Shown here: positions 49,899-63,897 of the stretch, one piece after another | How the letters are laid out: every line of letters begins with the position of its first letter | Position numbering within the stretch: the stretch's first letter is position 1 | Assembly (NCBI GenBank): GCA_002773095.1 | Contig: PFCG01000018.1 | Coordinates: 25,008-89,007 of the forward strand | Length of the DNA: 64,000 bases | Source of the DNA: Candidatus Moranbacteria bacterium CG10_big_fil_rev_8_21_14_0_10_35_21 | GTDB taxonomy: Bacteria; Patescibacteriota; Minisyncoccia; Moranbacterales; UBA2206 | Reading direction: 5' to 3' | The notes under the pieces: generated by a model | Databases searched by the model: none | Told to the model about the DNA's origin: nothing | The model's input: only the letters and a program-made list of their open reading frames with translations | Position numbers and translations under genes: made by a program

Positions 49899-50274
49899 TA
49901 ATAACCTTTTTCTGTTCAGCTGTTAATTCCTGATTATCACTCCTATCTCTTTCCAAAACTTCAACTTTATTCGTATAGGCTTTATGGCGATTTTGGAGCC
50001 AGAACCGGACTGCTGAAAAGTTATTATTTTTGATAGCAGTAATAAGTTGTGATTCCGATAAATCATTGACCATCAGGACACCATCTGCAATTGCCTCATC
50101 AGCATCACTCACAAATTTTTTATCCTCGTTTCGCCAACGGTAATAGGTCGCCCGGCTTATGCCGGCTTTTTGACAGGCCACCTGGACAATAGGCAGTTTG
50201 GCTAACTGTTCCAATACTGCTTTCTTGTCTTCAGCTATCCGTTTTTTGGTTGTTGTGTTATTTCTCTTGCTCAT
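49813..50274 (-). CDS. terS: Terminase small subunit-like HTH DNA-binding protein
   Basis: HTH VACQKAGISRATYYRWRNE. It lies immediately 5' of terL and overlaps it. Confidence 0.5.
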   Translation of the reverse strand: MSKRNNTTTKKRIAEDKKAVLEQLAKLPIVQVACQKAGISRATYYRWRNEDKKFVSDADEAIADGVLMVNDLSESQLITAIKNNNFSAVRFWLQNRHKAYTNKVEVLERDRSDNQELTAEQKKVISEALRLASVQKHNDDSKKITEPDSSTVS

Positions 50275-51049
50275 CTTTTTGTGTATTAGTTTCTAATCTC
50301 TCGGCCTTCACTCCTGACATTTTTTCGAAACGATCAATAATTGTCTGACAATATTCCGGATCAAGCTCAACCATAAAACAGCTTCGCTTGGTCTGCTCGC
50401 ACGCCAAAAGCGTTTGACCCGATCCGCCGAATCCGTCAAAAACCACATCTCCGATTTTTGAACTATTGAGAATAATTCTGCGCAATAATCCAAGTGGCTT
50501 CATCGTAGGATGAGCTTTGCTTTTACTAGGTCGAGGGAAAATTAAAACGCTTTTATCCTTAGATCGCAAGAAATCGTGCTGACCAAACCAACCGTAGGCA
50601 ATCAGCTCATGTTGCGGTAAATAATCCATTCGACCGATGATGCTGTGGTTTTTGACCCAGATAATAAGCTGAGTGAATTTGAAGCCGGCTTTTTCCATTC
50701 CGATTTTCAGCGCGAATATCATCTTGTCTGAATTGAAAATGTAAACGGAATTTTTGCGCTCAAGAAATGGTTTAATGGCTTCCAGCGAATCAGCGGTGAA
50801 CTGGATATATTCCTCTTCGCTTTGCAGGTGATCATTGGCGATCGGTTTCCGTTTGGTTTTCGAAGAAGTAAAACCCTCCTTTCCTTCTACTACTGCAATT
50901 GCATAGGGCGGATCCTGACACAAAAGTTTAGCTTTTTCTTTTTCAAAGAGTCTGACTATCAGTTTTTTGTCTCGACAGTCTCCGCAGGCCAGGCGATGGT
51001 TTCCTAAGAGAAACACATCGCCAATTTGAATTGAATTTTCTTTAGTCAT
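50258..51049 (-). CDS. DNA methyltransferase (N6-adenine/N4-cytosine, beta class)
   Basis: Motif IV LCQDPPYAI comes before motif I VVFDGFGGSGQTLLACEQTKRSCFMVELDPEY. Confidence 0.8.
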   Translation of the reverse strand: MTKENSIQIGDVFLLGNHRLACGDCRDKKLIVRLFEKEKAKLLCQDPPYAIAVVEGKEGFTSSKTKRKPIANDHLQSEEEYIQFTADSLEAIKPFLERKNSVYIFNSDKMIFALKIGMEKAGFKFTQLIIWVKNHSIIGRMDYLPQHELIAYGWFGQHDFLRSKDKSVLIFPRPSKSKAHPTMKPLGLLRRIILNSSKIGDVVFDGFGGSGQTLLACEQTKRSCFMVELDPEYCQTIIDRFEKMSGVKAERLETNTQKDEQEK

Positions 51050-52334
51050 TATTTTTTATATTACTGATTAGTTTCGCGCTCTTTCCACTTAAACTCTCAT
51101 ACCTTTTGATAATCACCTCGCAAAAAACCGGGTCCAGTTCGGCCATAAAACAGCGTCTTTTCATCTGCTCGCAGGCGATGAGGACAGACCCCGATCCGCC
51201 GAACAAATCCAAAACGGTATCGCCTGGCTTGGTGCAGCGGCGGAGTGGCTTTTCACTTAATGTGACGGGTTTTTCGGTGGGATGGGTGTAGCTGGCGGTC
51301 GGCAATCTTTTGACTAACCAAATATCAATAATATCCAAAATGTCCTCCGACAATCTGTTGCCGCTCGTCGTTTCTTTGTTGAGAATCTCATTAAGATTGG
51401 TAACTCGCGAAGAAATGTAAGGTTTTCCGCGCGTAGCATAGACACAAGGTTCATATGCCTTATTAAACGCTATTTGCGGAGTGACATTTTGGTTATTTTT
51501 AATCCACAAGCAGACTCGCTTTGAATCCAGCCCGAGTTCGGCGTAAATACTTTGGAGCGTGCCAATGTATCGCTGATCGCACCAATAAAAAACATGGCAA
51601 TCATTTTCAGAGACCGCCAGCGCGTTTTCCATAGTGGCTTTCAAAAAGTTTCGGTATTCTGTTTCGGTTTTCTTGTCATTGGCCGTTCCTCCGTATTTTC
51701 CATTTTTTCCAAGTCCGGAATCGTAATCATATCCAATATTGTATACTGGATCGCAGGCGATCATATCAATCTTTTCTTTTCCGACAAGTTTTTTAACTGT
51801 TGCTGGATCGGTGGAGTCCCCGCAAATTAAGTGATGACTTCCAAGTTCGTAGAGATCGCCAAGTTTTACTTTTGGTTCCTTGATTTCAGCAACTGCTTTT
51901 TCAAGATCAAAATCATCTTGTTCTGTCTCTAAATTATCATCCCATATATTAGACAGATCACCGTCATCGAAGCCCACATTCAACAGCAAATCCAGATCGA
52001 ACTCTTTCAAAAGTTCATAGTCCCATTCGCCAGTATTGCGATTTAAGCGCAAATTGAGTTCCTTCTCCTTTTCTATGTTCGGTATGTTTACATAGACTAC
52101 CGGAACCTCCTTGAGTTTGAGTTTTCTGGCTGTAGCCAAACGGAAATTACCGCCGATCACGATATTTATTCTTTTGGGCGCACTATTAACGATAATTGGA
52201 TCGACCATCCCATACTCGTTTACGCTTTCCTCTAGATGTTGTGCGGCCGCTTCATCCCACTTCCGGGGATTGTATTCGGGCGCTTTTAAAGAATCGACTT
52301 TGACGAAAGTGATTCTTAATTTTTCCTTCTCCAT
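51042..52334 (-). CDS. ParB-like nuclease domain fused to a DNA methyltransferase
   Basis: N-terminal ParB/Srx fold (YNPRKWDEAAAQHLEESVNEYGMVDPIIVN). Then IACDPVYNIGYDY (DPPY-like) and VLDLFGGSGSVLIACEQMKRRCFMAELDPVFCEV. Confidence 0.8.
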   Translation of the reverse strand: MEKEKLRITFVKVDSLKAPEYNPRKWDEAAAQHLEESVNEYGMVDPIIVNSAPKRINIVIGGNFRLATARKLKLKEVPVVYVNIPNIEKEKELNLRLNRNTGEWDYELLKEFDLDLLLNVGFDDGDLSNIWDDNLETEQDDFDLEKAVAEIKEPKVKLGDLYELGSHHLICGDSTDPATVKKLVGKEKIDMIACDPVYNIGYDYDSGLGKNGKYGGTANDKKTETEYRNFLKATMENALAVSENDCHVFYWCDQRYIGTLQSIYAELGLDSKRVCLWIKNNQNVTPQIAFNKAYEPCVYATRGKPYISSRVTNLNEILNKETTSGNRLSEDILDIIDIWLVKRLPTASYTHPTEKPVTLSEKPLRRCTKPGDTVLDLFGGSGSVLIACEQMKRRCFMAELDPVFCEVIIKRYESLSGKSAKLISNIKNND

Positions 52335-52696
52335 TATTTTGGTCGGAGAAAAGAACTAAAGATTTTGAATTTCAGATTAAAGTAAAGAAGCTGTTTTATT
52401 CCCCAACAAAACAAAAAAGATCCCGCAGTAACCATTTAATCTTAAGCTCTTTCTCTCGAAAGATTAAAACTTAAGCTCTTGCCTTGTTATGGTTATTATA
52501 TGGATCTAATATGATGTAAATTTGATATTCTATTTTCTAATTTTTTCTGATATTTTTTCTATACCATTATTATGCTCTTTTTTAAGAATATGTCAAACTC
52601 GAGATTTTATGGGGCTTTCAAGGGCTTTTCAGGGGCTTAAGTTATCAACTGTTTGAGCCTGGACTAGTTTTGGGGGTTGCGTCATTCCTTAGATAT

Positions 52697-54059
52697 ATGG
52701 ATAACACAACAAACCAACAACTAAAAGAAACCGGCCAAGGCGTCCAAGTAGTTGCGGAACCGGCCAAAATTAAATACTGCTTATATGCCCGGAAAAGCAC
52801 AGAGTCTGAAGAACGGCAGGTGCTTTCCATAGACTCACAAATCAAAGAAATGCTTCAGATTGCCGAGCGGGATGGGCTGGATATCGTGGAAATGCGGCGC
52901 GAAAGTCATTCAGCCAAAAACTCCAACGAGCGTCCAGTCTTCAATAGTATTATCAAAGACATTCAAGGCGGAAAGTTCAATGGCATTATGACTTGGGCGC
53001 CGGATCGGTTGAGTCGCAATGCTGGCGACCTCGGAGCGCTGGTTGATCTCATGGATCAAAAACTGTTGATTAAAATCCGAACCTTCGGCCAACAATTCAC
53101 CAATTCACCCAATGAAAAATTTCTGCTGATGATTTTAGGATCGCAAGCCAAACTGGAAAATGACAACCGAAGCGTCAATGTGAAGCGTGGTCTTCGGACA
53201 AGAGTAGAAATGGGACTTTGGCCGGGAGTAGCGCCGACCGGATATCTTAATGAAAAAATGACGGATCGCAAATGCCAAGTGATTGTTGATCCAGATCCGC
53301 GCGCCAATCATTCGTCAGGTGTTTGAAAAAGTCGCCTACGAACAATGGAGCGGACGAAAGTTATATCACTGGCTAAAATTCGAAATCCACTTCACGACCA
53401 GATATGGAAAACCGTTGGCGCTGAGCAATATCTATCGAATGTTGCAAAGACCATTCTATCATGGCGTGTATGAATATCCGGAAGAAAGCGGACACTGGTA
53501 TACCGGGAAACATAAACCGATCATTACCAAAGAATTATTTGACAAAGTTCAGGAACAATTGAATCGCGATCAGATCGTGCGGGAAAATAGAGAATTCGCT
53601 TTCACTAAGATGATTACTTGTGGACTATGCGGATCAGGCGTGACCGCTCAGGAAAAATACAAGAAACAGAAAAATGGTAATGTCCACCGCTACATTTATT
53701 ATGGATGCACCTGGGCCAAGGATCTGAATTGCAAATGCGGATATCTTCGCGAGGACGCGCTGATTGAAAGTCTAATAAATCTGATTGATAAAATCGATCT
53801 AAATGAATTGGGGCTGAAAAATAAGTTTCATGATGAAGTGATGAGATATAACCGGTTTCAAAGAAATGTACTGAAAAGACCGGGCAATGAAAAATCGGAA
53901 AGCGATATTGATCTCAGAGTCTACGCCAAATATATTCTCAAGGAAGGAAGCATGGTGGAAAAGCGCGAACTGCTATCGTGCCTGCGAAGCCGATTGATAT
54001 TCAAGGATAAGGCACTAACACTGGAAAAAGCTGAAAATATCGACTCGAGGACTGCTTAA
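52697..54059 (+). pseudogene. Large serine recombinase (phage integrase type) split by a frameshift at about 53283..53326
   Basis: The catalytic domain has YARKSTESEERQ (the Ser nucleophile) and DRLSRNAGDL. The downstream frame carries the recombinase domain and Zn ribbon (TCGLCGSGVTAQEKY...YYGCTWAKDLNCKCG). The two ORFs are in different frames and overlap by 44 nt. Confidence 0.7.
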
Positions 54060-54137: not shown

Positions 54138-54971
54138 ATGAGTAAAAAGATTTTAGTTTTTTCATTATCTTTCGCCGCTATCCTTTTGGTTTGGTATTTT
54201 TTATTTGATAAGGCTCCCCTACAAGGGGATTGGCAAGAGCAATTGGCAGTTATTTCTACAGCTGAGTTTAATGGTGATTTGGTGATGGTTAAAAATGTGC
54301 GAAACTTTCGCTATTATCCGACTGAAGCGGATATACATCCGGCCTATTATGACAAAACTTATGACCTTACCCAGATAAAAAAAGTCTGGTATGTGACTGA
54401 GCCTTTTAATGAAAATACAGTAGCGGCTCACACTTTCGTTTCTTTTGAATTCAATAACGGCGATTTCCTGTCGATTAGCATCGAAGCCCGCAAAACCAAG
54501 GGTCAAAAGTATAGCACTTGGAAAGGGATGCTTCACTCTTATCCGCTGGTTTATATTGCCGCGGATGAACGGGATGTTGTCTTGATGCGAGCCAATATGC
54601 GGAAAGACAAAGTATATGTTTATCCGGCGAAATTGGAAAAACCGGAAAACGCCCGATTGTTGTTTGTAGATATGCTCCAGCGAATGAATGAGTTAACTAC
54701 AATTGATCCGACTTGGTATAACACTCTTTTTGCCAACTGCACTTCCAGTATTGCTGATCATGTGAACAAACTCACCCCTGGACGCATCTCTATTTTTTCT
54801 TGGCAATTGTGGCTTACCGCTTCTGCAGATGAGTTGGCTTTACAACGGGGACTTTTAGATACCAATCTTCCTATTGAACAAGCTAGAGAAAGGTTTTCTA
54901 TTAATGAACTATCGGAAAAAATTGGAGACACTACTAACTATTCCAATGAAATTCGAAGAAAATCAAAGTGA
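54138..54971 (+). CDS. DUF4105-like (Lnb N-terminal domain-like) exported protein
   Basis: Signal anchor, then FRYYPTEADIHPAYYDKTYDL...SFEFNNGDFLSISIEARK. I recognise this as the DUF4105 family but with low certainty. Confidence 0.4.
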   Translation: MSKKILVFSLSFAAILLVWYFLFDKAPLQGDWQEQLAVISTAEFNGDLVMVKNVRNFRYYPTEADIHPAYYDKTYDLTQIKKVWYVTEPFNENTVAAHTFVSFEFNNGDFLSISIEARKTKGQKYSTWKGMLHSYPLVYIAADERDVVLMRANMRKDKVYVYPAKLEKPENARLLFVDMLQRMNELTTIDPTWYNTLFANCTSSIADHVNKLTPGRISIFSWQLWLTASADELALQRGLLDTNLPIEQARERFSINELSEKIGDTTNYSNEIRRKSK

Positions 54972-56158
54972 TGTCAACGAATGATACACTGCATATAATA
55001 ACCGGAGCTACAGGATTTTTAGGCAGAAGTCTAGTAAATAGATTATTAGATGACGGAGAAAAAATTTGCATTCTCATTAGAAATAATGGGGATGATTTTA
55101 AAACGAGGGCGGAAGTTATATTTCCCGGCTATGTTGTTAAATACGGCAATCGATTTAAAGTGATCAATGGTGATATAGTGAAAGAAAATCTAGGCATCAG
55201 CACCGAATTTTTGGAGGAGATCAAAAATGCAAAAATCAATCTCTGGCATCTTGCGGCAAATCTTTCTTTCAAGTGTGAACATAAAGAACAAATTTATCAG
55301 GACAATGTAAGAGGTGCTAAAAATGTTGTTAATCTTGTGAATACACTTAGCCCGGAATCGACTTTGTATTACACGAGCACTGCATATATATGTGGCTCAA
55401 AAAATAAGAAATGTAGCGAAGACGAAACAGATAGGGGGCAGATGCCGAGAAATTTGTATGAAAAGACAAAGCTTATCGCAGAAAAAATAATCAAAGATAA
55501 TTGCAAGAGAAAGCATATTGTTTTCCGTCCATCCATTATCATTGGGGATGCTTATGAGGGAAAAGCGGTAGGTTGCACGTTTGGATACTACAGGTTTACT
55601 TATGTATTTTATATTTTTAAGAAGTGGGCAATTGCCAAACTTCGTTATGGTGGCTTTTGGAAAAAGATACTGGAATTATTCGGAGCCGTCTATGAATCAA
55701 AAATAGACAAGCTTAAATTTAGCCGTTTAGCCCTTCCTTTTCCTAAAAATAGCCAGGTCAATCTAATACCGATTGATTTCGTGATAGATTCAATGGTAAA
55801 GATTTCCAAAGAGTGTCAAGGAAATAAAACTTTTCATATCGTGAACATTAATCCACCAAGCTTTATTTTTTTGTTCAGGGAGCTTCTGGATGATTTGGGA
55901 ATGAAAGGAATAAAATTAATCCCGGTTAATCCAGCTGTTTTTAATGGGATAATTAAGGTATGTTATTTTATCTTTGTTCCTCTTCGCAAATATTTTGAAT
56001 CAGCAATCAAATATAAACCATATATCACTATGAGATATGAGTTTAGCACTGACAATATGAGAACATTGGAATTAACCCCAACCGACATTTCAAGGGAGGA
56101 CATCAAAAGAATCAACAAATACGCTATCGATAGTATCTTCCCCAATATTAAGAGCTAG
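54968..56158 (+). CDS. SDR-family NAD(P)-dependent thioester/fatty-acyl reductase-like protein (NAD_binding_4 type)
   Basis: LHIITGATGFLGRSLV (TGxxGxxG), YTSTAYICG and YEKTKLIAE (YxxxK). Confidence 0.6.
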   Translation: MMSTNDTLHIITGATGFLGRSLVNRLLDDGEKICILIRNNGDDFKTRAEVIFPGYVVKYGNRFKVINGDIVKENLGISTEFLEEIKNAKINLWHLAANLSFKCEHKEQIYQDNVRGAKNVVNLVNTLSPESTLYYTSTAYICGSKNKKCSEDETDRGQMPRNLYEKTKLIAEKIIKDNCKRKHIVFRPSIIIGDAYEGKAVGCTFGYYRFTYVFYIFKKWAIAKLRYGGFWKKILELFGAVYESKIDKLKFSRLALPFPKNSQVNLIPIDFVIDSMVKISKECQGNKTFHIVNINPPSFIFLFRELLDDLGMKGIKLIPVNPAVFNGIIKVCYFIFVPLRKYFESAIKYKPYITMRYEFSTDNMRTLELTPTDISREDIKRINKYAIDSIFPNIKS

Positions 56159-56164
56159 AATCAT

Positions 56165-56737
56165 ATGGATTATATTTTGCAATGTTTATTGATTGCATCG
56201 CCCGTGCTTTTGGCGGGCATTGCTTTTATAATCTTTCTGAAGAAAGACTATTTTAGCTGGCTAAAAACTCCAGTGGATTTTGGAATGAAATTCAGGGGGA
56301 AGAGATTGCTCGGAGAAAACAAAACTTTGAGGGGCTTTGTCATCATGCCCCTGGCTACTTGGATTGCGGTGATTATGATCGGTTATTTAATGAAGTTTTT
56401 TAATTTTGAAAGTGGTAAGGCGTTATTTGATTATAGTTTGAGCGGTAGCTATAAAGCGCTAGCTTATGGAATGGCGTATCCGCTGGGAGAGCTGCCCAAT
56501 TCGTTTATCAAGAGGCAACTAAACATAAACCCGGGAGAAAGAGCTCACGGAGATTTGGCAAGAGTTTTTTTCAATTTTTTGGACAAGACAGACTCGCTAC
56601 TGATGTGCGGGATAGCAGTTTTCTTGCTTTACGGAATAAGTGCAAACTATATCCTTGGAGCAATTATTTTAGGCCTATTGTTTCATTATCTGACTGATTT
56701 TTTGATGTTAAAACAAGGCCTAAAGAAGGAAGTTTAA
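56165..56737 (+). CDS. Small CTP-transferase-family membrane protein (CDP-archaeol synthase CarS-like / CdsA-like cytidylyltransferase)
   Basis: 190 aa with five TM helices. FRGKRLLGENKTLRGF (GxxKTxxG motif) and KRQLNINPGERAHGDLAR (a relic of the C-terminal signature). The size fits CarS rather than the 270-aa bacterial CdsA. Confidence 0.5.
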   Translation: MDYILQCLLIASPVLLAGIAFIIFLKKDYFSWLKTPVDFGMKFRGKRLLGENKTLRGFVIMPLATWIAVIMIGYLMKFFNFESGKALFDYSLSGSYKALAYGMAYPLGELPNSFIKRQLNINPGERAHGDLARVFFNFLDKTDSLLMCGIAVFLLYGISANYILGAIILGLLFHYLTDFLMLKQGLKKEV

Positions 56738-57337
56738 AAGAAGGGCGGTAGAAACCGGAACGGTTAAGTTATCGGTTCCAAAATACGAATAATGTTCAAT
56801 GACAGAAACAACCATCGAAATGAGAATAATTTTAAACAAAGCTAGGGCGATCAGCTGATTATAAAAAATAGCATAGCTTGCAAGAACCGCAGTTGCTGTG
56901 ATAAGAAAAACTATAATACTTCCTTTCAGGGAGTTTTTATTATGCTTGAGATTGTAGAGTCCGGATATTCCATCTGCGAATCCCATTACGGCGATCGAGC
57001 TTATCATCACAAATGCATCTTCATAGAAGAAAGACGCAAGAATAATAAGGGAGAACGGATATAATATTTCTCCAATCGTTTTGCGTTTTTCCAGATGAAC
57101 AGATTTAAGAAAATTTGTCAGATATGAGATGATAAACAGGGCAGTAAAAAGAGAGGTTGCCAAAATAAACTCACTCTTAGACAGAAAGAAATAAAAAAAC
57201 ATTACAAGTATGGCACTTCCAATATGGGCAGTCTTGCGAGTGATTTCGCGCGAGATGCTTGTCTTTCTCTTTGTCCACTCTATGGCAAAATAGAAGCATG
57301 CGAATGACAGTATGGTAATTAAGGTTATTTGCGACAT
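56720..57337 (-). CDS. Polyprenol (dolichol/phytol) kinase-like CTP-dependent membrane protein
   Basis: Six TM helices. RKTAHIGSAIL and MGFADGISGLYN...SLKGS resemble the VTE5/dolichol-kinase/CdsA family. Confidence 0.4.
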   Translation of the reverse strand: MSQITLITILSFACFYFAIEWTKRKTSISREITRKTAHIGSAILVMFFYFFLSKSEFILATSLFTALFIISYLTNFLKSVHLEKRKTIGEILYPFSLIILASFFYEDAFVMISSIAVMGFADGISGLYNLKHNKNSLKGSIIVFLITATAVLASYAIFYNQLIALALFKIILISMVVSVIEHYSYFGTDNLTVPVSTALLLNFLL

Positions 57338-57855
57338 TCTTTTTTGAGGAGGATTAATTTTGAATTCTTTTTGTGTCTGAAAACTTCTTTTAGTCGGTGC
57401 AATTTAAAGCGTTGTTTTAGAAAGTTTATTTTTTCTCGGTAATTGAGGTAGCTTAAGCTAGTCTCTTTAAAACCATGAAGTTCTAGGATAGTTTTTATAT
57501 TCTCCAAAAAAGTAGCGGCAAAATAATTGTTCGCGGTATTTTTGGTGGCGTGTTCTATTAAAAGGGAGGATAAATTATTCTTCCTAAATTGGGGCTTAAC
57601 ATACAGTCCGTTAATTTCAATTATAGCATTACTTAACTTGTGGGAGATTAGGAATCCGGCCAGCGTGTTTTCTATAAACAAACAATTAATCATATCGTTT
57701 TCTAATAGTTTTTTAATTTCGTTCATTTTTCGAAAGGAGAGATTTTTTTCTCCCTTGATCAAATAATATATTTCGTTAGCAACAGAGACAATGCTGAGTC
57801 TATCAGTAAAGCTATTCTGAATGGTTATTTGTTTAAATTTATCACTGCTAAACAT
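57325..57855 (-). CDS. GNAT-family N-acetyltransferase
   Basis: INGLYVKPQFRKNNLSSLLIEHATK, which is an acetyl-CoA motif-A-like element. Start uncertain. Confidence 0.45.
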   Translation of the reverse strand: MFSSDKFKQITIQNSFTDRLSIVSVANEIYYLIKGEKNLSFRKMNEIKKLLENDMINCLFIENTLAGFLISHKLSNAIIEINGLYVKPQFRKNNLSSLLIEHATKNTANNYFAATFLENIKTILELHGFKETSLSYLNYREKINFLKQRFKLHRLKEVFRHKKNSKLILLKKECRK

Positions 57856-58445
57856 ATAATGAATAGTGTTAATATATACCAGAGCCAATAATTTTTAGGT
57901 TTTTTGAATTTAATATTTGATATCATCAAAAATGATGTCAGTATAATTATTAAAGGGGTAAAATAGATAATTTCAGGAAAAAGCAATGACGAGCTTATAA
58001 ACAATACGATTACTGATAATTGTGCAAATGGAACCGGTAGGCCGATGTAATATTGTTCGTTGTTATCTTTGACTAGGCCAGCGAGGTTGAATCTAGAAAG
58101 CCTTAGTATCCCGGCGGAAATCATAATAAAGACACTTACAATGGTAATCGCTTTGTTGAAGCTAAGGAAGTTGAGGGTAAAAATTGAAGTGAATGTTAAA
58201 TAATTTAGAGCATCAACGAATGAGTCCAGTTGTCGGCCAAACTCGCTTTCTATTTTTAACTTTCTGGCAACATAACCATCTAGGGTGTCCAGAAAGAAGG
58301 CAAAGGAAGCGGCAATAATGGCTTGGTTCGGCTTTCCGTCGAGGATAAAATAATAGCCTGTGACGGTAGGTAAAATAGCCGATAGAGAAATGATATCGGC
58401 AACACTTAGTTTTTTCAGAATAGATAGATGTTCTTTTATGCTCAT
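57825..58445 (-). CDS. CDP-alcohol phosphatidyltransferase (PgsA / phosphatidylserine- or archaetidyl-head-group synthase class)
   Basis: Signature DTLDGYVARKLKIESEFGRQLDSFVDALNY, which is D-x2-DG-x2-AR...G-x3-D-x3-D, with six TM helices. Confidence 0.8.
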   Translation of the reverse strand: MSIKEHLSILKKLSVADIISLSAILPTVTGYYFILDGKPNQAIIAASFAFFLDTLDGYVARKLKIESEFGRQLDSFVDALNYLTFTSIFTLNFLSFNKAITIVSVFIMISAGILRLSRFNLAGLVKDNNEQYYIGLPVPFAQLSVIVLFISSSLLFPEIIYFTPLIIILTSFLMISNIKFKKPKNYWLWYILTLFIICLAVINLNK

Positions 58446-61036
58446 TCTTTTATTACTTTTATTAGTCCTTTGTTGCCGTCAACTTCAATTAGCTCATTAT
58501 CTTTAATCCTATTAACAACATCTTCAACTCTAACAACAGATGGAATTCCTAATTCCCGGCTCAATATAGCAGCATGAGAAAGAGAGTTTCCTTTTTCCAG
58601 CACGATTCCTTTTATGAGCGGGAAAATTAATGACCATCCCGGATCAGTCTGATAAGTAATGACAATCTTATCTCTAACATCAATATTAGCATCGAATTTC
58701 TTAAGAATAACAGCCCTCCCCCTGACTATTCCCTGGGATGTGGGTAGTCCCCGGTATTCATTTTTGGCCAATAACACCTCAGTGTCATTAATAATTTGAG
58801 CAGTCTTTCCGATTCCTATTAGTTTAAGGCGTTGAGGCAGGTCTTCTTCCTGTTTGTATTGCGAAAAGGTTTCTTTCCGCTTTTTTATTATCTCTCTGTA
58901 GTCTGATTCAAAATTATTGGAGTTTGAAATGTCCATTATCTCATTAGTGGTAAGATAAAAAATATCTTCTTTCGCGTCTATTATTTTTGCCAAAACAAAC
59001 TTATCGGCTAAAACCAAGAAGCAGTCTCTGGCGATACCATAAACGATAGCGCGCTTAATTCTAAAGAGTTCTCTGAATCTGATTGAAAGCCGGGTGTAGT
59101 GGGCGATCCATTTGGCAAAAAGACTGTAAATATGTCCCCGAACCATCCCGTGTTTATTTTTTATGGCCTTTTCCAGTTCATTGATATTTTGATTCACCCT
59201 CTCTGGTTTTTTAATAGCAGTATTCGTTTTGGAATAATATTTTATTAGGGTTATCAGAATATCAGGATCATCGCTAATTCTTGGGCTTTCCAAAATCAAT
59301 TCGTCCGGCCTTCGGTCGCCAAATTTATCTATATATGCGTCCAACATAGCTTTAAATTTGGAAAGCTCAATATTATCTGAGTCCAGAAGGTGTGCATATA
59401 TTAATCGGGGATTTTGTTCCTGGAATAGTTTAGTAAGTTCTGTTTTTCTGTAAATATATTCAGAAAGCTTATTTAACTCGTGGATTATTTCCAGGTCATC
59501 GTGACCGGAAAAATTAGTGATCAGTTTGTTAAGGTATATTTGCGAATCCTCCTGGATATTTTGAAAAACAATTTTTTTAAGGACTCCATGAAAAATCATC
59601 AAGCGGAAATCATTTAGTATCGGAACCTTCCAGTCATCTAGGAATGATTCTTTCAGCTTAGCGTAATAATTACAAAGCTCTCTCGCATTCATTGACTGCA
59701 ATTCAGTTTTCTTGTGGTGTTTGTTTTTTCTTTCAAATTCTTTCAGGAATTTATGATTCAGTCTTTTATAAAAAACAAGCTTATGGGCAAACTTCAAAAT
59801 CAGAGGAAGGTTTCTTGCGAGGGATATTAGCTGGACACCTCCCTCTTGTTTTTTTATTTCTGTAATTTTCTTTTGCGGTACCAGCATTGACTCAAAAAAA
59901 TCCTTATTGTAGCCATAGCCGGGGAGAATTTTTATCATTTCGTACCAATTGGAAATTTTGTAATAGACCCGGCCTTTTATATATCCCAAAAGATTGTTCA
60001 ATTTTTCTTGCTTTGCATTTATCTTTTTGTTTTCAACTCCAACTAGTCGGAAAAAATTGGCATAGACTTTGGAATAAGCAAATTGAATGAAGGAGTAAGT
60101 GAGAGGAGAGATGACTGAAGGATAGCTTTCGGAGATGTTGGTACAATCGAATATTTCTTCTTGAGTATCAGTAAATATATTTTGGGTAATATTTCTCGTT
60201 TGCAAAATAGCGACATCTTTTTCTGAAATTGACCATTCGATATCCTGCCCGACGCCCTTGAGGTAAGCTATTTTTTGGATTTGAGAAAGCATTTTCTGAA
60301 AAGGTGCTTCCAGATGGTTCTGTTTTATGATTAGTGGTGTTTCCAATTTATTTTTATCTGTAACTTCAATTTCATGGGCATTGCTTCCGTCCACTATATT
60401 TTTACCTATACCATGATTAAAAACAATTTTTGCGTTAAGTGGATATCGGACAAAAGCAACTCCTGAAAATTTGGCTGGAAACATTTCCTGAACAATGACG
60501 GAAAAGTTCAGGGCATCTAGCTTTATGTCGTTTGATCTAATATATTGGAAGACCCTTGGGGAAAAAATGCTACGGAAACACTTTTCGAGATAAGTTCGGA
60601 AATTTTCTTCAGTGAAGGTAATGTCCAGATATGTCTCATAAAGTCCGGCAAAGGAATAATCGGCTAAATCCTCAAGGGAGGCCGACGTTCTGAAGCTAAT
60701 TGATTTTGGAAACAAAGATTGCAATCTTAAAAAATCATTACTAAGCTTCCCTGCATCCCATTTCAATCCAGAAAATAGATCGTCTATATTTTTCTGATTG
60801 CCTTCTCTAAATTCTTTTATGAGCGACCGTGCGACATCGGTATAATTTACAAAGTAATCGCTTAGCAGAACAATCTTAAAACTGGGCGTTGGAAGTCCAT
60901 TTTTTTCAAGCCATATTAAATTATCGGATTTGTTTCCGATAATATTTTCTTCAATATCAATCTTTGACTTATCTAAAATCATAACAAGTAAAAGTTGAGA
61001 ATAATTAATCCATACATCCCAAGCGCGATGCTCCAT
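58442..61036 (-). CDS. PEP-synthase-like swivelling phospho-His kinase (PPDK_N ATP-grasp plus PEP-utilizer mobile domain, no TIM-barrel PEP domain; rifampicin-phosphotransferase-like architecture)
   Basis: N-terminus GNKSDNLIWLEKNGLPTPSF and SFRTSASLEDLADYSFAGLYETYLDI. C-terminus GNSLSHAAILSRELGIPSVV (phospho-His). Length 864 aa. Confidence 0.7.
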   Translation of the reverse strand: MEHRAWDVWINYSQLLLVMILDKSKIDIEENIIGNKSDNLIWLEKNGLPTPSFKIVLLSDYFVNYTDVARSLIKEFREGNQKNIDDLFSGLKWDAGKLSNDFLRLQSLFPKSISFRTSASLEDLADYSFAGLYETYLDITFTEENFRTYLEKCFRSIFSPRVFQYIRSNDIKLDALNFSVIVQEMFPAKFSGVAFVRYPLNAKIVFNHGIGKNIVDGSNAHEIEVTDKNKLETPLIIKQNHLEAPFQKMLSQIQKIAYLKGVGQDIEWSISEKDVAILQTRNITQNIFTDTQEEIFDCTNISESYPSVISPLTYSFIQFAYSKVYANFFRLVGVENKKINAKQEKLNNLLGYIKGRVYYKISNWYEMIKILPGYGYNKDFFESMLVPQKKITEIKKQEGGVQLISLARNLPLILKFAHKLVFYKRLNHKFLKEFERKNKHHKKTELQSMNARELCNYYAKLKESFLDDWKVPILNDFRLMIFHGVLKKIVFQNIQEDSQIYLNKLITNFSGHDDLEIIHELNKLSEYIYRKTELTKLFQEQNPRLIYAHLLDSDNIELSKFKAMLDAYIDKFGDRRPDELILESPRISDDPDILITLIKYYSKTNTAIKKPERVNQNINELEKAIKNKHGMVRGHIYSLFAKWIAHYTRLSIRFRELFRIKRAIVYGIARDCFLVLADKFVLAKIIDAKEDIFYLTTNEIMDISNSNNFESDYREIIKKRKETFSQYKQEEDLPQRLKLIGIGKTAQIINDTEVLLAKNEYRGLPTSQGIVRGRAVILKKFDANIDVRDKIVITYQTDPGWSLIFPLIKGIVLEKGNSLSHAAILSRELGIPSVVRVEDVVNRIKDNELIEVDGNKGLIKVIKE

Positions 61037-61842
61037 TTATCAGAAGTATCAATAATCATTTTTCTTTTGATGAAATAAAGGATGGCAATTATTACTATTG
61101 CGAGCATTTGCAGAATGACAAGAAAATCAAGTCTATGTATAACAAGGGATATGGATAATGCCTGAAGGCAATAAAGAAATAACAAAAAAGCATATGACCG
61201 CTTTTCTCCCCAGCGGTAAATATAGGTATCGTTAGTCGCGTAGCCTTTTGGGGAAATCCTGTGTTTTACCTTCCTTCCAACTTCATAGATGAGCGTGGGA
61301 AGAAACAGGGCAAGAATGATCCAGATATCTTGCGAAGATTTAGGGATAAAAAAGTAACTCGATCCTACTGATAGCGTATAAAGTATGTAAATGATGAAAA
61401 TTATCTGATGCGAGAAGAGAAAAAGAACAAAGCTTTTATTCTCTAAGTCTTTTATGTAGAAATTTTTAAACATTAAAAACGAATATGCTACGGCCAGTAA
61501 GAATAATGGAAGAGTTTGGAAGGGTAGAAATAATTGCATGGATATTTCGACAAAAAGGATGACAAGGGCGACTCTTTTAATTATCGAGAGGGATAAAATT
61601 CCTTTTTGAACCGGTCTTGACTCGTGATGTTTTGAATCATACTGGAAATCTTTGAGTTCGTCCCAAAGGCGAATCCTTAGCAAAAACAAAAACATCATTA
61701 AAGAGACAATCAATATCTTGCCGAAATTATTGCTGTCTTCGTTGGCGTAGGCTATTCCCGCAAAGCCAAAGAGAAACGAGAGCAGCAGGGCGGGAATAAC
61801 TGGAAATCGTTCTTTCGTGTAAGTCAGAATGTTTTTAATCAT
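60979..61842 (-). CDS. UbiA-superfamily prenyltransferase
   Basis: Eight to nine TM helices. First Asp-rich motif LWDELKDFQYDSKHHESRPVQKG, which is D-x3-D...RP-x3-G. Confidence 0.5.
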   Translation of the reverse strand: MIKNILTYTKERFPVIPALLLSFLFGFAGIAYANEDSNNFGKILIVSLMMFLFLLRIRLWDELKDFQYDSKHHESRPVQKGILSLSIIKRVALVILFVEISMQLFLPFQTLPLFLLAVAYSFLMFKNFYIKDLENKSFVLFLFSHQIIFIIYILYTLSVGSSYFFIPKSSQDIWIILALFLPTLIYEVGRKVKHRISPKGYATNDTYIYRWGEKRSYAFLLFLYCLQALSISLVIHRLDFLVILQMLAIVIIAILYFIKRKMIIDTSDKWSIALGMYGLIILNFYLL

Positions 61843-61945: not shown

Positions 61946-62725
61946 ATGAAGATAAATCTAAAAAAATTATCCTACATTATTACGGCTGTTGTTTTAATAA
62001 TAGTCATTTTTGGGGTTGGATTGTATTTTTGGGCAGAAAAGAATCGTCAGCAATTTTGTTTTTATAGGCATCTGTCGGACGCGGTCAAGATCAACAATGA
62101 AAGGAAGTCATACTATTCTAAAATCACCGCGGGGATATCTGAAGGTACTTCCAATAATTTGATCAGAAACGAGAGAATGCTGATGCCCGTGGCTTTATGG
62201 CTAGACATCCGAGCTCAGAAATTTATAAAAAAGGGTGTGCCAATCGTTTGTAATGATTTTGTTGAAATGAACGGTATAGAGAGCAAAGAAGGAAAGCCAT
62301 TTTATGCCAATATTGCCAATGAGTCAGTTTTTGAAAGGTTAAATTCAGATTTTGAAAATACAAAAACAGAAATGCGGAAATACAATCAGCAAAATGATTT
62401 TAAAAAAGTTAGCGAAATGGCGTATAGCTTGTTACTGAAAGTTGAGAACATTGAAAAAGAAACAAAAAGCAATTTTTGCATGGCTAGGCATGTAATTGAT
62501 TCTCTTGGGTTAGCAGCTGTTCATGCTGGCGGATATTCAAAGAATAGTCGTGGAGAAATAGATTCTTTCGCTCAGTCTTTTGTTGGGACGCAAATATCTG
62601 GACTTTCCAATTCTATCCTTGATATCGATAGAGGTGCCCAAAAAGCTCATCAATTGGGTGTTGGGATCGTTTGCAATGATGTGCCAAAGATTCCCTTTAA
62701 GGAAGAACACGAAAATAATTTATAA
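61946..62725 (+). CDS. Hypothetical signal-anchored protein
   Basis: N-terminal TM (LSYIITAVVLIIVIFGVGLYFW). It contains CNDxxxxxxE-like duplicated segments (VPIVCNDFVE and VGIVCNDVPK). Confidence 0.35.
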   Translation: MKINLKKLSYIITAVVLIIVIFGVGLYFWAEKNRQQFCFYRHLSDAVKINNERKSYYSKITAGISEGTSNNLIRNERMLMPVALWLDIRAQKFIKKGVPIVCNDFVEMNGIESKEGKPFYANIANESVFERLNSDFENTKTEMRKYNQQNDFKKVSEMAYSLLLKVENIEKETKSNFCMARHVIDSLGLAAVHAGGYSKNSRGEIDSFAQSFVGTQISGLSNSILDIDRGAQKAHQLGVGIVCNDVPKIPFKEEHENNL

Positions 62726-62730
62726 TTTTT

Positions 62731-63897
62731 TTGATTAATATGAATAGTAAAGTTTTGAAAAACATCCGATTATTTTGGGCAACCATGATTAAGTCACCTG
62801 GCTATTTTGGTCAATTTACCAATCAGATATATCAGGTCTATCTCAATCATCACAAAATAGTTCATTTTAGAGATGGTTACCCGGTTTATTCGCTTTCTAC
62901 TCCCGCGCTCTATAGTAAGCCAGCAGCTAATTTTTTTGCTCGCTCGCTATATAGAATCATTCAAAACAGGAACCTGCCAAACCTGATGAGCTTTGCTGTT
63001 TCTAAAACCTGCAATGCGGATTGCAAGCACTGCAGTTTTTTCGATAGTGAGAGTAAAAGGGAAGGAAAAATGCTGACGTTGGAGCAGTGCAAAAAAGTAA
63101 TTAAAGACGCACAGGAATTGGGCGTTTCAATTATCAATCTTTTGGGCGGAGAACCATTGATGAGGGAGGACATATTGGATGTCATTAAAAGCATCAATAA
63201 GGATTTGTCCACCGTTATACTGTTTACGAATGGCTGGTATCTCGCCGGAAAAGCAATGGAGCTGAAAAAATCTGGCCTTGATGGTGTTTATGTTAGTATT
63301 GATTCCGCTGATAAAGAAGAGCACGATAAAATTAGGGGTAAGCAAGGGATGTTCGATAGAGGAATGGAAGGTTTAAGAAATGCCAAAAAAGCAGGTCTAA
63401 CAGTTGGAATCTCCTGTTGCATCACAAAAGAAGATTATCAAAACGGAAAACTAAAAAGAATAATTGAGCTTGGGAAAAAGGTTGGTGTTCATGAGGTGCT
63501 TGTCTTTGATGCTATTCCCACAGGCAGAATGAGTGGTTGTGGAAATTTGGTTGATGATAATGGCTGGATCAATGAGATGATAAAATTCACTGAAAAATAC
63601 AATAAAGATGATAGTTACCCGGGGATATTGGTCTATGCATATGCTACCAGCTATCGAAGCACTGGGTGCTCCGGCGGGACGAGCTATTTTTATGTCTCTC
63701 CTTATGGCGATATTTCTCCATGTGATTTCAATCATGCAACTTTCGGCAATGTCCTGGAAGAGCCTTTGTATGAAATTTGGGGCAGGATGTCGTCATTGGA
63801 TTTGTATGAGCAAGCCACCTGGGGCGGATGCAAGATGAAAAGCTCAAAATATAGGGATAATGAACATGTGTCAGCCGAAGGATATAAAAGAGGATAA
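62731..63897 (+). CDS. Radical SAM enzyme with C-terminal SPASM/twitch-like Cys cluster
   Basis: CNADCKHCS (CX3CX2C). Glycine-rich SAM motif INLLGGEPLM. C-terminal CSGGTSYFYVSPYGDISPCDFNHA...GGCKM. Confidence 0.7.
   Translation: MINMNSKVLKNIRLFWATMIKSPGYFGQFTNQIYQVYLNHHKIVHFRDGYPVYSLSTPALYSKPAANFFARSLYRIIQNRNLPNLMSFAVSKTCNADCKHCSFFDSESKREGKMLTLEQCKKVIKDAQELGVSIINLLGGEPLMREDILDVIKSINKDLSTVILFTNGWYLAGKAMELKKSGLDGVYVSIDSADKEEHDKIRGKQGMFDRGMEGLRNAKKAGLTVGISCCITKEDYQNGKLKRIIELGKKVGVHEVLVFDAIPTGRMSGCGNLVDDNGWINEMIKFTEKYNKDDSYPGILVYAYATSYRSTGCSGGTSYFYVSPYGDISPCDFNHATFGNVLEEPLYEIWGRMSSLDLYEQATWGGCKMKSSKYRDNEHVSAEGYKRG

What the first reader, a model, noticed from the sequence alone, without database searches (positions are those of the whole stretch)
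58442..61036. PEP-synthase-like phospho-His kinase without a PEP domain inside the lipid module
The protein has the ATP-grasp PPDK_N domain and the C-terminal swivelling His domain (GNSLSHAAILSRELGIP). Like rifampicin phosphotransferases it lacks the TIM-barrel PEP/pyruvate domain, and its central region of about 450 aa is of unknown specificity. In this context it may phosphorylate a lipid alcohol or head-group precursor. That would be a new substrate class for this enzyme family.
Basis: partly seen in the sequence, partly recalled or inferred. Interest (0 to 1): 0.6.

Follow-up and report, generated by a model that had tools for sequence, protein, structure and literature searches.

The report
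Lipid-pathway dikinase paired with UbiA transferase
This gene encodes an ATP-driven phosphate-transfer enzyme of the rifampin-phosphotransferase/PigC type (not a PEP synthase) that sits directly after a UbiA-type membrane transferase gene in hundreds of genomes, marking a widespread lipid-building pathway that has not been characterised.

Summary
Window 58442-61036 (-) encodes a soluble three-domain enzyme: ATP-grasp, a ~450-aa helical substrate-binding domain, and a C-terminal phospho-His swivel domain (GNSLSHAAI). It has no PEP/pyruvate TIM barrel. The real start is probably M19 (60982; 846 aa), in an ATGA overlap with the upstream UbiA gene. The host is a Candidatus Moranbacteria (CPR) MAG.

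At fold level it matches Listeria rifampin phosphotransferase over its full length, but identity is only ~20% and it fails the Rph and PigC family cut-offs.

The pairing with UbiA is strong in both directions. UbiA lies directly upstream in 70 of 90 dikinase-retrieved loci from many phyla. The dikinase lies directly downstream in 60 of 60 testable UbiA-retrieved loci. The surrounding genes are interchangeable:
- a thioester reductase (FAR or HMGR-like);
- one accessory hydroxyl kinase (polyprenol-kinase-like, APH or DAGK_cat);
- a head-group module (CarS plus CDP-alcohol transferase, or a BtaA-like DUF3419).

Best reading: the dikinase phosphorylates a lipid alcohol-derived intermediate, most likely a monophosphate to a diphosphate, to make the donor for UbiA. 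This step is inferred from context only. Novelty: new variant of a known kind.

The parts
58442..60982 (-). Rph/PigC-type small-molecule dikinase gene (846 aa from M19; the longest ORF extends to 61036)
   Evidence: ORF; ATGA overlap with the UbiA stop; homologues of 846 aa; Pfam and NCBIfam; structure model; Foldseek match to Rph
60179..60982 (-). N-terminal ATP-grasp (nucleotide-binding) domain, about aa 1-268
   Evidence: PPDK_N hit. The profile aligns with the Rph/PEPS/PPDK ATP-grasp over positions 4-259, including the DIEW...LQxRPIT motif. Invariant or nearly invariant residues include K18, R98, E249, Q261, R263.
58838..60160 (-). Central, mostly helical substrate-binding domain, about aa 275-715. 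It carries the family motif FDCTNISESYP and the catalytic block R637-E638...R641...R644.
   Evidence: Secondary structure of the model. The C-terminal half aligns with the Rph RIF-binding domain and the N-terminal half does not at sequence level. PF27448 Rph_4th is precomputed on the identical protein P0001. Invariant residues. Rph catalytic residues R666/H825 (PMC13534948).
58445..58837 (-). C-terminal phospho-histidine swivel domain; catalytic His803 codon at 58574-58576
   Evidence: PEP-utilizers hit; translation GIVLEKGNSLSHAAILSRELGIP; H803 invariant in 60 homologues
60979..61842 (-). UbiA-family membrane transferase, translationally coupled and directly upstream of the dikinase. Atypical clade: R58, D61-E-x-K-D65-xxx-D69, then E187-xx-R190-K191 in place of the second DxxxD motif.
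   Evidence: Pfam UbiA E 7.7e-10; NCBIfam PRK13592; conservation over 79 sequences; adjacency statistics
57825..58445 (-). CDP-alcohol phosphatidyltransferase, (archaetidyl)serine-synthase-like; 4-nt overlap with the dikinase stop
   Evidence: Pfam PF01066 E 1.8e-16; NCBIfam archaetidylserine synthase/pssA, below cut-off; PDB phosphatidylserine synthase 7B1K E 2e-14
57325..57888 (-). Small GNAT acyltransferase (the true start is probably further downstream; homologues are 158-172 aa)
   Evidence: Pfam Acetyltransf_1 E 8.4e-5; conserved position in syntenic loci
56720..57337 (-). 205-aa polytopic membrane protein of the polyprenol (phytol/dolichol) kinase / CTP_transf_1 superfamily
   Evidence: Alignment A2 motifs TRKxVH, DxxAAxxG, KTxxGS, GxDNLT(I/V)P; 5 of 25 members hit PF01148; family named phytol kinase/dolichol kinase by sources; present in 48 of 90 loci
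56165..56737 (+). CarS-like CTP:lipid-phosphate cytidylyltransferase, convergent with the core operon
   Evidence: Pfam CarS-like E 6.5e-11; PDB CDP-archaeol synthase 5GUF E 0.011; co-occurs with the CDP-OH transferase in 18 of 19 loci
54968..56158 (+). FAR-type (NAD_binding_4) thioester reductase
   Evidence: Pfam NAD_binding_4 E 5.2e-36; conserved in close relatives; mutually exclusive with HMGR-like reductases across loci
61946..63897 (+). Divergent pair: a 259-aa single-TM protein and a radical SAM/SPASM enzyme. Conserved beside the cluster only in close CPR relatives; membership in the pathway is uncertain.
   Evidence: Pfam Radical_SAM/SPASM; synteny in L001-L004 and L010

Best explanation
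The gene encodes a soluble, three-domain small-molecule dikinase of the rifampin-phosphotransferase/PigC superfamily. The shown or family-established part is the mechanism. The ATP-grasp domain binds ATP, His803 on the C-terminal swivel domain picks up the beta-phosphate (with AMP and Pi released), swings to the helical substrate-binding domain, and delivers the phosphate next to the conserved R637-E638 block. The inferred part is the substrate. The enzyme is the dedicated partner of the UbiA-family membrane transferase encoded immediately upstream, within a modular lipid pathway. In that pathway an acyl thioester is reduced to an alcohol by the FAR-type reductase (an HMGR-like reductase in other clusters). 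The alcohol is then phosphorylated by the polyprenol-kinase-like 205-aa protein (an APH or DAGK_cat kinase elsewhere). The dikinase adds the second phosphate, giving an alkyl or prenyl diphosphate. UbiA transfers that group onto a glycerol-type acceptor. The resulting lipid phosphate is CDP-activated by the CarS-like enzyme, given a serine-like head group by the CDP-alcohol transferase, and N-acylated by the GNAT. The logic parallels phytol salvage in plants and cyanobacteria (VTE5, then VTE6, then a UbiA-family transferase), with the dikinase in the VTE6 role.
For: Architecture and catalytic residues; the Rph/HapC mechanism is from PMC4844700 and PMC13534948.
Coupling to UbiA: there is an ATGA start/stop overlap. 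UbiA is directly upstream on the same strand in 70 of 90 dikinase-retrieved loci from many phyla, and near-adjacent in 9 more. The dikinase is directly downstream in 60 of 60 testable UbiA-retrieved metagenomic loci.
The dikinase also occurs in clusters whose head-group enzyme is a BtaA-like DUF3419, which needs no phosphate. Its role is therefore not simply to supply the phosphate for the CDP route.
Interchangeable accessory hydroxyl kinases never co-occur: polyprenol-kinase-like in 48 loci, APH in 8, DAGK_cat in 6 (Fisher p 0.0015 and 0.008). In Photorhabdus the APH domain is fused to the HMGR-like reductase, which points to reductase followed by kinase as consecutive steps and leaves a second phosphorylation for the dikinase.
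HMGR-like (38 loci) and FAR (9 loci) reductases are mutually exclusive.
The UbiA clade keeps the first Asp-rich phosphate/Mg motif. To my knowledge UbiA enzymes use diphosphate donors.
The dikinase has no TM segment. In Sulfolobus the second prenol-phosphorylating activity was cytosolic, and its gene is unknown outside plants and cyanobacteria (PMC9782597).
One locus fuses the 205-aa domain to a UbiA domain.
Against: There are no biochemical data, and the substrate is inferred from gene context alone. No characterised member of this superfamily phosphorylates a phosphate monoester; the known acceptors are hydroxyl or carbonyl oxygens (rifampin, phenols, the MBC aldehyde). In 12 loci the polyprenol-kinase-like protein is fused to an extra membrane domain with weak, partial similarity to DUF92, the VTE6 family (5 of 12 members, best E 0.002). 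If that domain is active, those clusters already have a second kinase. In 28 of 90 loci no accessory kinase was detected within about 7 kb, although 13 of these are short contigs. The linked UbiA clade has ExxRK where the canonical second DxxxD motif sits, so its donor may not be a standard diphosphate. Saturated alkyl diphosphates would be poor electrophiles for UbiA-type chemistry (general knowledge). Co-occurrence statistics are not corrected for phylogeny, and the UbiA-retrieved set covers a narrower clade (49-95% identity).
Confidence: 0.45

Rival explanations
1. The dikinase acts after UbiA, or on a scavenged lipid. It phosphorylates the free hydroxyl of a diradylglycerol-like lipid to make the phosphatidate analogue that the CarS-like enzyme converts to the CDP-lipid.
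For: In the window the gene lies between UbiA and the CDP-alcohol transferase, and the CarS-like enzyme needs a lipid phosphate. All characterised superfamily members phosphorylate an oxygen of an organic acceptor (PMC4844700, PMC12167813). CPR bacteria are thought to depend on scavenged lipids (general knowledge).
Against: Most dikinase-UbiA clusters (57 of 90 loci) have a BtaA-like DUF3419 and no CarS/CDP-OH pair, so no lipid phosphate is needed for their head group, yet the dikinase is retained. The clusters already carry a dedicated lipid hydroxyl kinase of one of three types. The tightest and reciprocal linkage is to UbiA, not to CarS.
Confidence: 0.2
2. It is a PigC-like activating or condensing enzyme. 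It transiently phosphorylates a carbonyl or enol oxygen (for example of an aldehyde released by the reductase), so that phosphate serves as a leaving group for bond formation. The bond forms either within its own substrate domain or when the intermediate is handed to UbiA, and no stable phosphorylated lipid accumulates.
For: NCBIfam scores for PigC and RedH (205 and 204 bits) slightly exceed the Rph score (188), and their alignments extend into the N-terminal half of the central domain (aa 243-861), which Rph alignments do not reach. NAD_binding_4 reductases can stop at the aldehyde (general knowledge). The atypical UbiA second motif would fit a non-standard donor.
Against: All scores are far below the PigC/RedH cut-offs of 1300 and 1350. 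No pyrrole or prodiginine genes are nearby. HMGR-type reductases give alcohols, and the APH fusion implies an alcohol product that is then phosphorylated.
Confidence: 0.12
3. It phosphorylates a small polar molecule rather than a lipid. One candidate is the acceptor or backbone for UbiA, such as glycerol converted to a specific glycerol phosphate stereoisomer. Another is a head-group precursor.
For: The enzyme is soluble. Two-component relatives act on small phenolics (PMC12167813). The nearest solved or curated relatives of the cluster partners are archaeal-type enzymes: DGGGP synthase (E 1.8, not significant), CDP-archaeol synthase (E 0.011) and archaetidylserine synthase. No glycerol-1-phosphate dehydrogenase is present in the cluster.
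Against: There is no specific evidence for it. Most host lineages make glycerol phosphate by standard routes (general knowledge). The large ~450-aa cleft-forming domain in Rph and PigC accommodates bulky hydrophobic ligands (PMC4844700, PMC13534948). The recurrent reductase and ligase genes point to a dedicated lipid-tail precursor.
Confidence: 0.1
4. It is a rifamycin (or other antibiotic) phosphotransferase, that is, a resistance gene.
For: It has the same three-domain architecture and gives a full-length structural match to Listeria Rph. It carries the Rph_4th domain and keeps the catalytic Arg-Glu block and His.
Against: Identity to Rph-Lm is about 20%, against more than 42% for validated Rph enzymes (PMC4844700). 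The NCBIfam Rph equivalog scores 188 bits against a cut-off of 999. The N-terminal half of the central domain does not align with Rph. A distant Rph homologue tested by Stogios et al. gave no rifampin resistance. The operon with lipid enzymes is conserved across phyla.
Confidence: 0.02
5. It is a genuine PEP synthase (pyruvate, water dikinase), as database names for relatives state.
For: Relatives are named 'phosphoenolpyruvate synthase' or 'pyruvate, water dikinase' by NCBIfam and JGI.
Against: There is no PEP/pyruvate TIM-barrel domain, and the domain order is wrong because the His domain is C-terminal. The true PEPS models score 127-133 bits against cut-offs of 598-740.
Confidence: 0.01

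Closest known systems
Rifampin phosphotransferase (Rph; Listeria monocytogenes, PDB 5HV1/5FBS)
   Same: Same three-domain order (ATP-grasp, helical substrate-binding domain, C-terminal phospho-His swivel domain). Full-length structural alignment. Conserved catalytic His and Arg-Glu block. Presumably the same dikinase chemistry (ATP to AMP + Pi + phospho-substrate).
   Different: Identity is about 20%. The N-terminal half of the substrate domain is unalignable by sequence and carries a different invariant motif (WD-TNISESYP). It fails the Rph family cut-off. The genomic context is a lipid operon, not a stand-alone resistance gene.
Prodiginine ligases PigC / RedH / HapC
   Same: Same architecture. 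The sequence match is slightly better than to Rph and reaches further into the substrate domain. They set the precedent that the phosphate can act as an activating or leaving group for a biosynthetic coupling step (PMC13534948).
   Different: Scores of ~205 bits against cut-offs of 1300-1350. No prodiginine genes nearby. Here the partner enzyme is a membrane UbiA transferase.
Two-component phenol dikinases (HpeHI, PpsAB phenylphosphate synthase, CreHI)
   Same: Rph-type substrate and swivel domains plus an ATP-grasp component; ATP to AMP dikinase chemistry on a hydroxyl acceptor (PMC12167813).
   Different: Those are split into two proteins, act on small aromatic catabolic substrates, and are not linked to UbiA or lipid genes.
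PEP synthase / pyruvate phosphate dikinase
   Same: Homologous ATP-grasp and phospho-His swivel domains.
   Different: They have a C-terminal PEP/pyruvate TIM barrel and a central His domain. The window protein has neither.
Phytol/prenol salvage pathway (VTE5 phytol kinase, VTE6 phytyl-phosphate kinase, UbiA-family VTE2/ChlG)
   Same: Functional analogy only. An alcohol is phosphorylated twice and the diphosphate is used by a UbiA-family transferase. The 205-aa cluster protein belongs to the VTE5/dolichol-kinase superfamily, and PMC9782597 describes the two-kinase logic.
   Different: The dikinase is unrelated to VTE6 (a DUF92 membrane protein). The alcohol here appears to be made by a dedicated reductase rather than salvaged. 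The end product carries a polar head group.

Membership tests
PEP synthase / PPDK | N-terminal ATP-grasp (PPDK_N) nucleotide-binding domain | tested here: met
   PF01326 E 1.2e-27; the profile aligns with PEPS/PPDK ATP-grasp domains
PEP synthase / PPDK | C-terminal PEP/pyruvate-binding TIM barrel, with the His domain in the middle | tested here: not met
   No PEP-utilizers_C hit. The protein ends 43 aa after the His. The model and Foldseek show an Rph-type helical domain instead. PEPS equivalogs score 127-133 bits against cut-offs of 598-740.
PEP synthase / PPDK | GGxT(S/C)H motif with a regulatory Thr two residues before the His | tested here: not met
   The motif here is GNSLSH, with Leu at -2. 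The criterion is taken from PMC12167813.
Rifampin phosphotransferase (Rph) | ATP-grasp + central substrate-binding domain + C-terminal swivel His domain | tested here: met
   PF27448 Rph_4th on the identical protein
Rifampin phosphotransferase (Rph) | More than 42% identity to Rph-Lm (validated clade A), or reaching the NCBIfam equivalog cut-off | tested here: not met
   18-20% identity; NF041857 scores 188 bits against 999, and NF000283 scores 123 against 1700; criterion from PMC4844700
Rifampin phosphotransferase (Rph) | Conserved RIF-binding-domain sequence blocks and RIF-contact residues | tested here: inconclusive
   Only the C-terminal half aligns, including the block-9-like R637-E638...R641. 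Profile positions 260-485 do not align with Rph. Individual contact residues were not mapped.
Rifampin phosphotransferase (Rph) | Phosphorylates rifampin / confers resistance | not testable with these tools
   Needs an MIC test or enzyme assay
PigC/RedH/HapC prodiginine ligases | Reaches the family cut-off and lies in a prodiginine (MBC/MAP) gene cluster | tested here: not met
   205 and 204 bits against 1300 and 1350; the neighbours are lipid enzymes
UbiA-linked PRK06241.2-type dikinases (uncharacterised; named 'phosphoenolpyruvate synthase') | Central-domain motif [WFL]D[NSC][TS]NIxE[SN]Y plus the invariant N457-D458, R557/E561 and R637-E638/R641/R644 | tested here: met
   FDCTNISESY is present; invariant columns in 60 homologues; the motif retrieved at least 595 genomic relatives
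UbiA-linked PRK06241.2-type dikinases (uncharacterised; named 'phosphoenolpyruvate synthase') | UbiA-family gene directly upstream on the same strand | tested here: met
   ATGA overlap in the window; 70 of 90 and 60 of 60 loci in the two directions
UbiA-linked PRK06241.2-type dikinases (uncharacterised; named 'phosphoenolpyruvate synthase') | Reaches an NCBIfam PRK06241.2-x equivalog cut-off | tested here: not met
   Best is NF004881 at 479 bits against 883. The Photorhabdus member passes NF004883 (1932 against 1063). The window protein is a divergent CPR member.
Polyprenyl-phosphate kinase (VTE6 / COG1836 / DUF92) | DUF92 integral membrane protein | tested here: not met
   The dikinase is soluble and unrelated. 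The comparison is functional analogy only.

The most novel reading that the evidence does not exclude
The enzyme is a lipid-phosphate kinase that makes alkyl or prenyl diphosphates, or it transfers a pyrophosphoryl group from its His to a lipid alcohol. Either way it would be the bacterial counterpart of the long-sought 'polyprenyl-phosphate kinase'. Together with its obligate UbiA partner it would define a previously unrecognised route from carboxylic acids (acid, thioester, alcohol, diphosphate) to ether-type membrane lipids carrying serine-phosphate or homoserine head groups. The route would be present in hundreds of species across more than 20 phylum-level lineages, including CPR bacteria. 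It would also explain orphan HMG-CoA-reductase-like genes in bacteria such as Photorhabdus, which to my knowledge make isoprenoids through the MEP pathway.
Probability: 0.3. Interest if true: 0.85.

Novelty: new variant of a known kind. Interest (0 to 1): 0.66.

Why it matters
The Rph/PigC superfamily is recognised as a large, mostly unexplored group of small-molecule dikinases (PMC4844700). Its known substrates are an antibiotic, phenolics and a bipyrrole aldehyde. A clade that is reciprocally locked to a UbiA-family membrane transferase would add lipids as a substrate class. That clade sits among interchangeable reductases, lipid kinases and head-group enzymes. It would also expose a complete, modular lipid pathway that databases currently label 'phosphoenolpyruvate synthase' and 'prenyltransferase'. 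The pathway is directly testable because it occurs in cultured strains (Photorhabdus, Agreia pratensis, Desulfosarcina variabilis, Rhabdobacter roseus, Bacteriovorax). For CPR bacteria such as this Moranbacteria MAG, which are generally thought to lack lipid synthesis, it suggests a self-encoded way to build membrane lipids. It also bears on which enzyme carries out the second step of prenol salvage outside plants and cyanobacteria (PMC9782597).

Tried and rejected
- A single-protein scan of genome contigs found no relatives. The alignment-based scan worked.
- The broad 27-sequence UbiA alignment was too divergent for pattern extraction. A tighter type-B subset was used instead, so the reverse test covers a narrower clade.
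- The AFDB50 fold library was unavailable.
- Rfam found no RNA family in the window that could help identify the organism. Identification came from a 100%-identical protein in a Candidatus Moranbacteria MAG.
- A PDB profile search for the 205-aa family returned nothing.
- Literature searches for this operon found no description of it: UbiA + PEP synthase + CDP-alcohol transferase + Patescibacteria; Photorhabdus + HMG-CoA reductase + prenyltransferase; DUF3419 + UbiA; UbiA + ether lipid + fatty alcohol + kinase. The Lipocone paper mentions other UbiA neighbourhoods only.
- Rejected readings: genuine PEP synthase (no TIM barrel) and a rifampin resistance gene (fails the identity and cut-off criteria; conserved lipid operon).
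- Considered but unsupported: an enol-phosphate/vinyl-ether (plasmalogen-like) route, and a DPPR-synthase-like reaction on a lipid-phosphate acceptor.

Full report
**Observation**

Pfam finds PPDK_N (aa 109-236, E 1.2e-27) and the PEP-utilizers mobile domain (aa 789-857, E 2.3e-19), and nothing else. The quoted motif GNSLSHAAILSRELGIP is present, with the His codon at 58574-58576.

The start needs one correction. The upstream UbiA gene ends ...TTG TTA TGA, and an ATG (M19) shares the ATGA tetranucleotide with that stop. The close homologues are 846 aa and show the same 4-nt overlap. The gene is therefore most likely 58442..60982 (846 aa). Residue numbers below use the 846-aa numbering.

An identical protein is annotated 'hypothetical' in a Candidatus Moranbacteria (CPR) MAG.

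**Anatomy**

- A 60-sequence family profile aligns with Listeria rifampin phosphotransferase (Rph) over a complete ATP-grasp (profile positions 4-259) and over positions 485-829 (E 1e-112). The ~225 positions in between do not align.
- The AlphaFold2 model is confident (pLDDT 87.2, pTM 0.71). It has an alpha/beta ATP-grasp, a long all-helical middle domain and a C-terminal beta/alpha swivel domain.
- Foldseek aligns the model with Rph 5HV1 over its full length (E 2.7e-35, ~925 columns, 20% identity). The TM-score of 0.49 is what differing domain poses would give.
- There is no TIM barrel, and the chain ends 43 residues after the catalytic His.
- Invariant residues in 60 homologues include H803 and R637-E638. 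These correspond to Rph H825 and R666-E667 (PMC13534948).
- The family also has its own invariant set in the substrate domain: D279, N282, E285, Y287 (motif WD-TNISESYP), N457-D458, R557, E561, E565, R641 and R644.
- The protein has no predicted transmembrane segment.

**What it is not**

- It is not a PEP synthase. It lacks the PEP domain, the domain order is wrong, and true PEPS models score 127-133 bits against cut-offs of 598-740.
- It is not an Rph. The Rph equivalog scores 188 bits against a cut-off of 999, and identity to Rph-Lm is ~20%. Stogios et al. report more than 42% identity and 12 conserved RIF-binding blocks for validated Rph enzymes. They also report that distant clades keep only the catalytic Arg-Glu/Lys block, and that one tested distant homologue gave no resistance (PMC4844700).
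- It is not a PigC or RedH (205 and 204 bits against 1300 and 1350).
- The precomputed Pfam domain PF27448 'Rph_4th' and the full-length fold match show that the central domain is homologous to the Rph rifampin-binding domain. That scaffold is common to the whole superfamily (PMC13534948, PMC12167813).

**Context in the window**

The minus-strand operon reads:
- UbiA (60979-61842);
- the dikinase;
- a CDP-alcohol phosphatidyltransferase (57825-58445, serine-synthase-like);
- a GNAT (57325-57888);
- a 205-aa membrane protein (56720-57337).

A plus-strand operon converges on it: an Lnb_N protein, a FAR-type reductase (54968-56158) and a CarS-like cytidylyltransferase (56165-56737). A 259-aa protein and a radical SAM/SPASM enzyme diverge from UbiA.

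The core arrangement recurs in relatives from 60% down to 31% identity, including Saccharibacteria and Actinomycetota.

**The coupling with UbiA**

The family motif retrieved at least 595 relatives from species-representative genomes. I analysed 80 of them, spanning more than 20 phylum-level lineages and one archaeal MAG. Cultured strains among them include Agreia pratensis, Photorhabdus spp., Desulfosarcina variabilis, Ruegeria profundi, Bacteriovorax, Calothrix and Rhabdobacter roseus.

I built HMMs from the cluster proteins and scanned all 90 loci.
- A UbiA homologue was present in 80 loci.
- It lay directly upstream on the same strand in 70, and within 200-460 nt in 4 more.
- In 5 Photorhabdus/Pseudomonas loci a single gene separated the two.
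- Four of the 10 loci without a UbiA hit have no upstream DNA.

These loci were all retrieved with the dikinase, so I also ran the reverse test. Of 80 metagenomic loci retrieved with a UbiA alignment, 60 had at least 400 nt downstream, and all 60 carried the dikinase directly downstream. That UbiA set is a narrower clade (49-95% identity).

The linked UbiA clade conserves R58, D61-E-x-K-D65-xxx-D69 and RPxxRG. In place of the canonical second DxxxD motif it has E187-xx-R190-K191.

**The surrounding modules**

- Head group. CDP-OH transferase and CarS travel together (18 of 19 loci, p 5e-18) and are anti-correlated with DUF3419 (57 loci, p 4e-9). [quoted passage not shown] To my knowledge that enzyme type transfers a homoserine-type group to a free lipid hydroxyl.
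- Reductase. HMG-CoA-reductase-like (38 loci) and FAR-type (9 loci) never co-occur (p 0.009).
- An AMP-binding ligase (53 loci) and a GNAT-like protein (53 loci) are frequent.
- Accessory kinase. The 205-aa protein (48 loci) has the motifs TRKxVH, DxxAAxxG, KTxxGS and GxDNLT(I/V)P. It weakly matches PF01148 (5 of 25 members). Sources name its family phytol kinase, dolichol kinase or diacylglycerol/polyprenol kinase family. It never co-occurs with an APH-type kinase (8 loci; fused to the HMGR-like reductase in Photorhabdus) or with a DAGK_cat/YegS lipid kinase (6 loci; next to FAR in Bdellovibrionota). Fisher p values are 0.0015 and 0.008, not corrected for phylogeny.
- APH-fold kinases can phosphorylate lipid alcohols. 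ACAD10 is a 1-O-alkylglycerol kinase (PMC13596139).

**Mechanism proposed**

Inferred: the acceptor is a lipid intermediate on the donor side of the UbiA reaction. The most economical scheme is:
1. acid to thioester (ligase);
2. thioester to alcohol (FAR or HMGR-like reductase);
3. alcohol to monophosphate (205-aa kinase, APH or DAGK_cat);
4. monophosphate to diphosphate (the dikinase);
5. transfer by UbiA to a glycerol-type acceptor;
6. head-group addition (CarS plus CDP-alcohol transferase, or DUF3419) and N-acylation (GNAT).

Four observations favour this scheme.
- The dikinase-UbiA pair also occurs in DUF3419-type clusters, whose head group needs no phosphate. That argues against a role limited to feeding CarS.
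- The HMGR::APH fusion implies that a different kinase acts on the reductase product.
- To my knowledge UbiA enzymes use diphosphate donors.
- A two-kinase prenol activation with a soluble second activity has biochemical precedent, and its gene is unidentified outside plants and cyanobacteria (PMC9782597).

One locus fuses the 205-aa domain to a UbiA domain, and one database protein fuses it to a CdsA-type domain.

**Caveats**

- No member of the superfamily is known to phosphorylate a phosphate monoester.
- In 12 loci the 205-aa domain carries an extra membrane domain with weak, partial DUF92 (VTE6-family) similarity (5 of 12 members, best E 0.002). The domain has few invariant polar residues. 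If it is active, those clusters already have a second kinase.
- In 28 loci no accessory kinase was detected nearby, although 13 of these are short contigs.
- The UbiA clade's unusual second motif may mean a non-standard donor.
- The chemical identity of the tail, the acceptor and the final lipid is unknown.

I therefore put 0.45 on the donor-activation model. The rivals are phosphorylation of the UbiA product (0.20), PigC-like transient activation (0.12), a small polar substrate (0.10), Rph (0.02) and PEP synthase (0.01).

**Novelty and verdict**

The fold and chemistry are those of a known superfamily, and the family is annotated in databases as 'phosphoenolpyruvate synthase'. I found no description of its coupling to UbiA or of this modular lipid cluster in the searchable literature. 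I rate it a new variant of a known kind, with an interest score of 0.66.

Noticed in passing
window 48384-54059: A GC-rich island (0.41-0.425, against ~0.33-0.36 for most of the rest of the window) lies immediately beside the lipid cluster. It carries a terminase large subunit, an HTH protein, two DNA methyltransferases (one with a ParB_N domain) and a serine recombinase. It is probably a prophage or integrative-element remnant.
   Followed up: no
window 52670-53326 and 53283-54059: The serine recombinase is split into two overlapping ORFs, one with Resolvase and one with Recombinase + Zn_ribbon_recom. This suggests a frameshift or pseudogene. A full-length 517-aa serine recombinase also lies beside the homologous cluster in locus L005 (10982-12535), which hints that the cluster may be mobile.
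   Followed up: no
window 61946-63897; L001-L004, L010: A radical SAM/SPASM enzyme and a 259-aa single-TM protein with no family match are conserved next to UbiA, but only in the close CPR relatives. They might modify the lipid tail or be unrelated.
   Followed up: partly
window 54138-54971: An Lnb_N (lipoprotein N-acyltransferase Lnb, N-terminal periplasmic domain) protein heads the plus-strand operon with the FAR reductase and CarS. It is also present in L002/L003.
   Followed up: no
L060 4219-6804 (Photorhabdus akhurstii); also L019, L023, L073, L087: An HMG-CoA-reductase-like domain is fused to an APH/EcKL-type kinase, between UbiA and the dikinase. The HMGR-like proteins score below the TIGR00533 cut-off (306-345 bits against 442). 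They may explain 'orphan' HMGR genes in bacteria that, to my knowledge, use the MEP pathway.
   Followed up: partly
L034 11339-12037 and 11 other loci (alignment A3): A ~220-aa extra membrane domain is fused to the polyprenol-kinase-like protein. It shows weak, partial DUF92 (VTE6-family) similarity in 5 of 12 members and has few invariant polar residues.
   Followed up: partly
L026 10713-12404; protein P0215: Two fusions of the 205-aa domain were found: to a second UbiA domain in a gammaproteobacterial MAG, and to a strong CdsA-type cytidylyltransferase domain in Flavobacterium silvaticum.
   Followed up: no
L012 (Thermoplasmatales archaeon MAG): The UbiA-dikinase pair, together with a DAGK_cat kinase, DUF3419, a GNAT-like protein and an AMP-binding ligase, also occurs in one archaeal MAG. 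This could be horizontal transfer or a binning artefact.
   Followed up: no
window 1-64000: No Rfam family reached its gathering threshold anywhere in the 64-kb window, so no tRNA, rRNA or riboswitch was detected.
   Followed up: no
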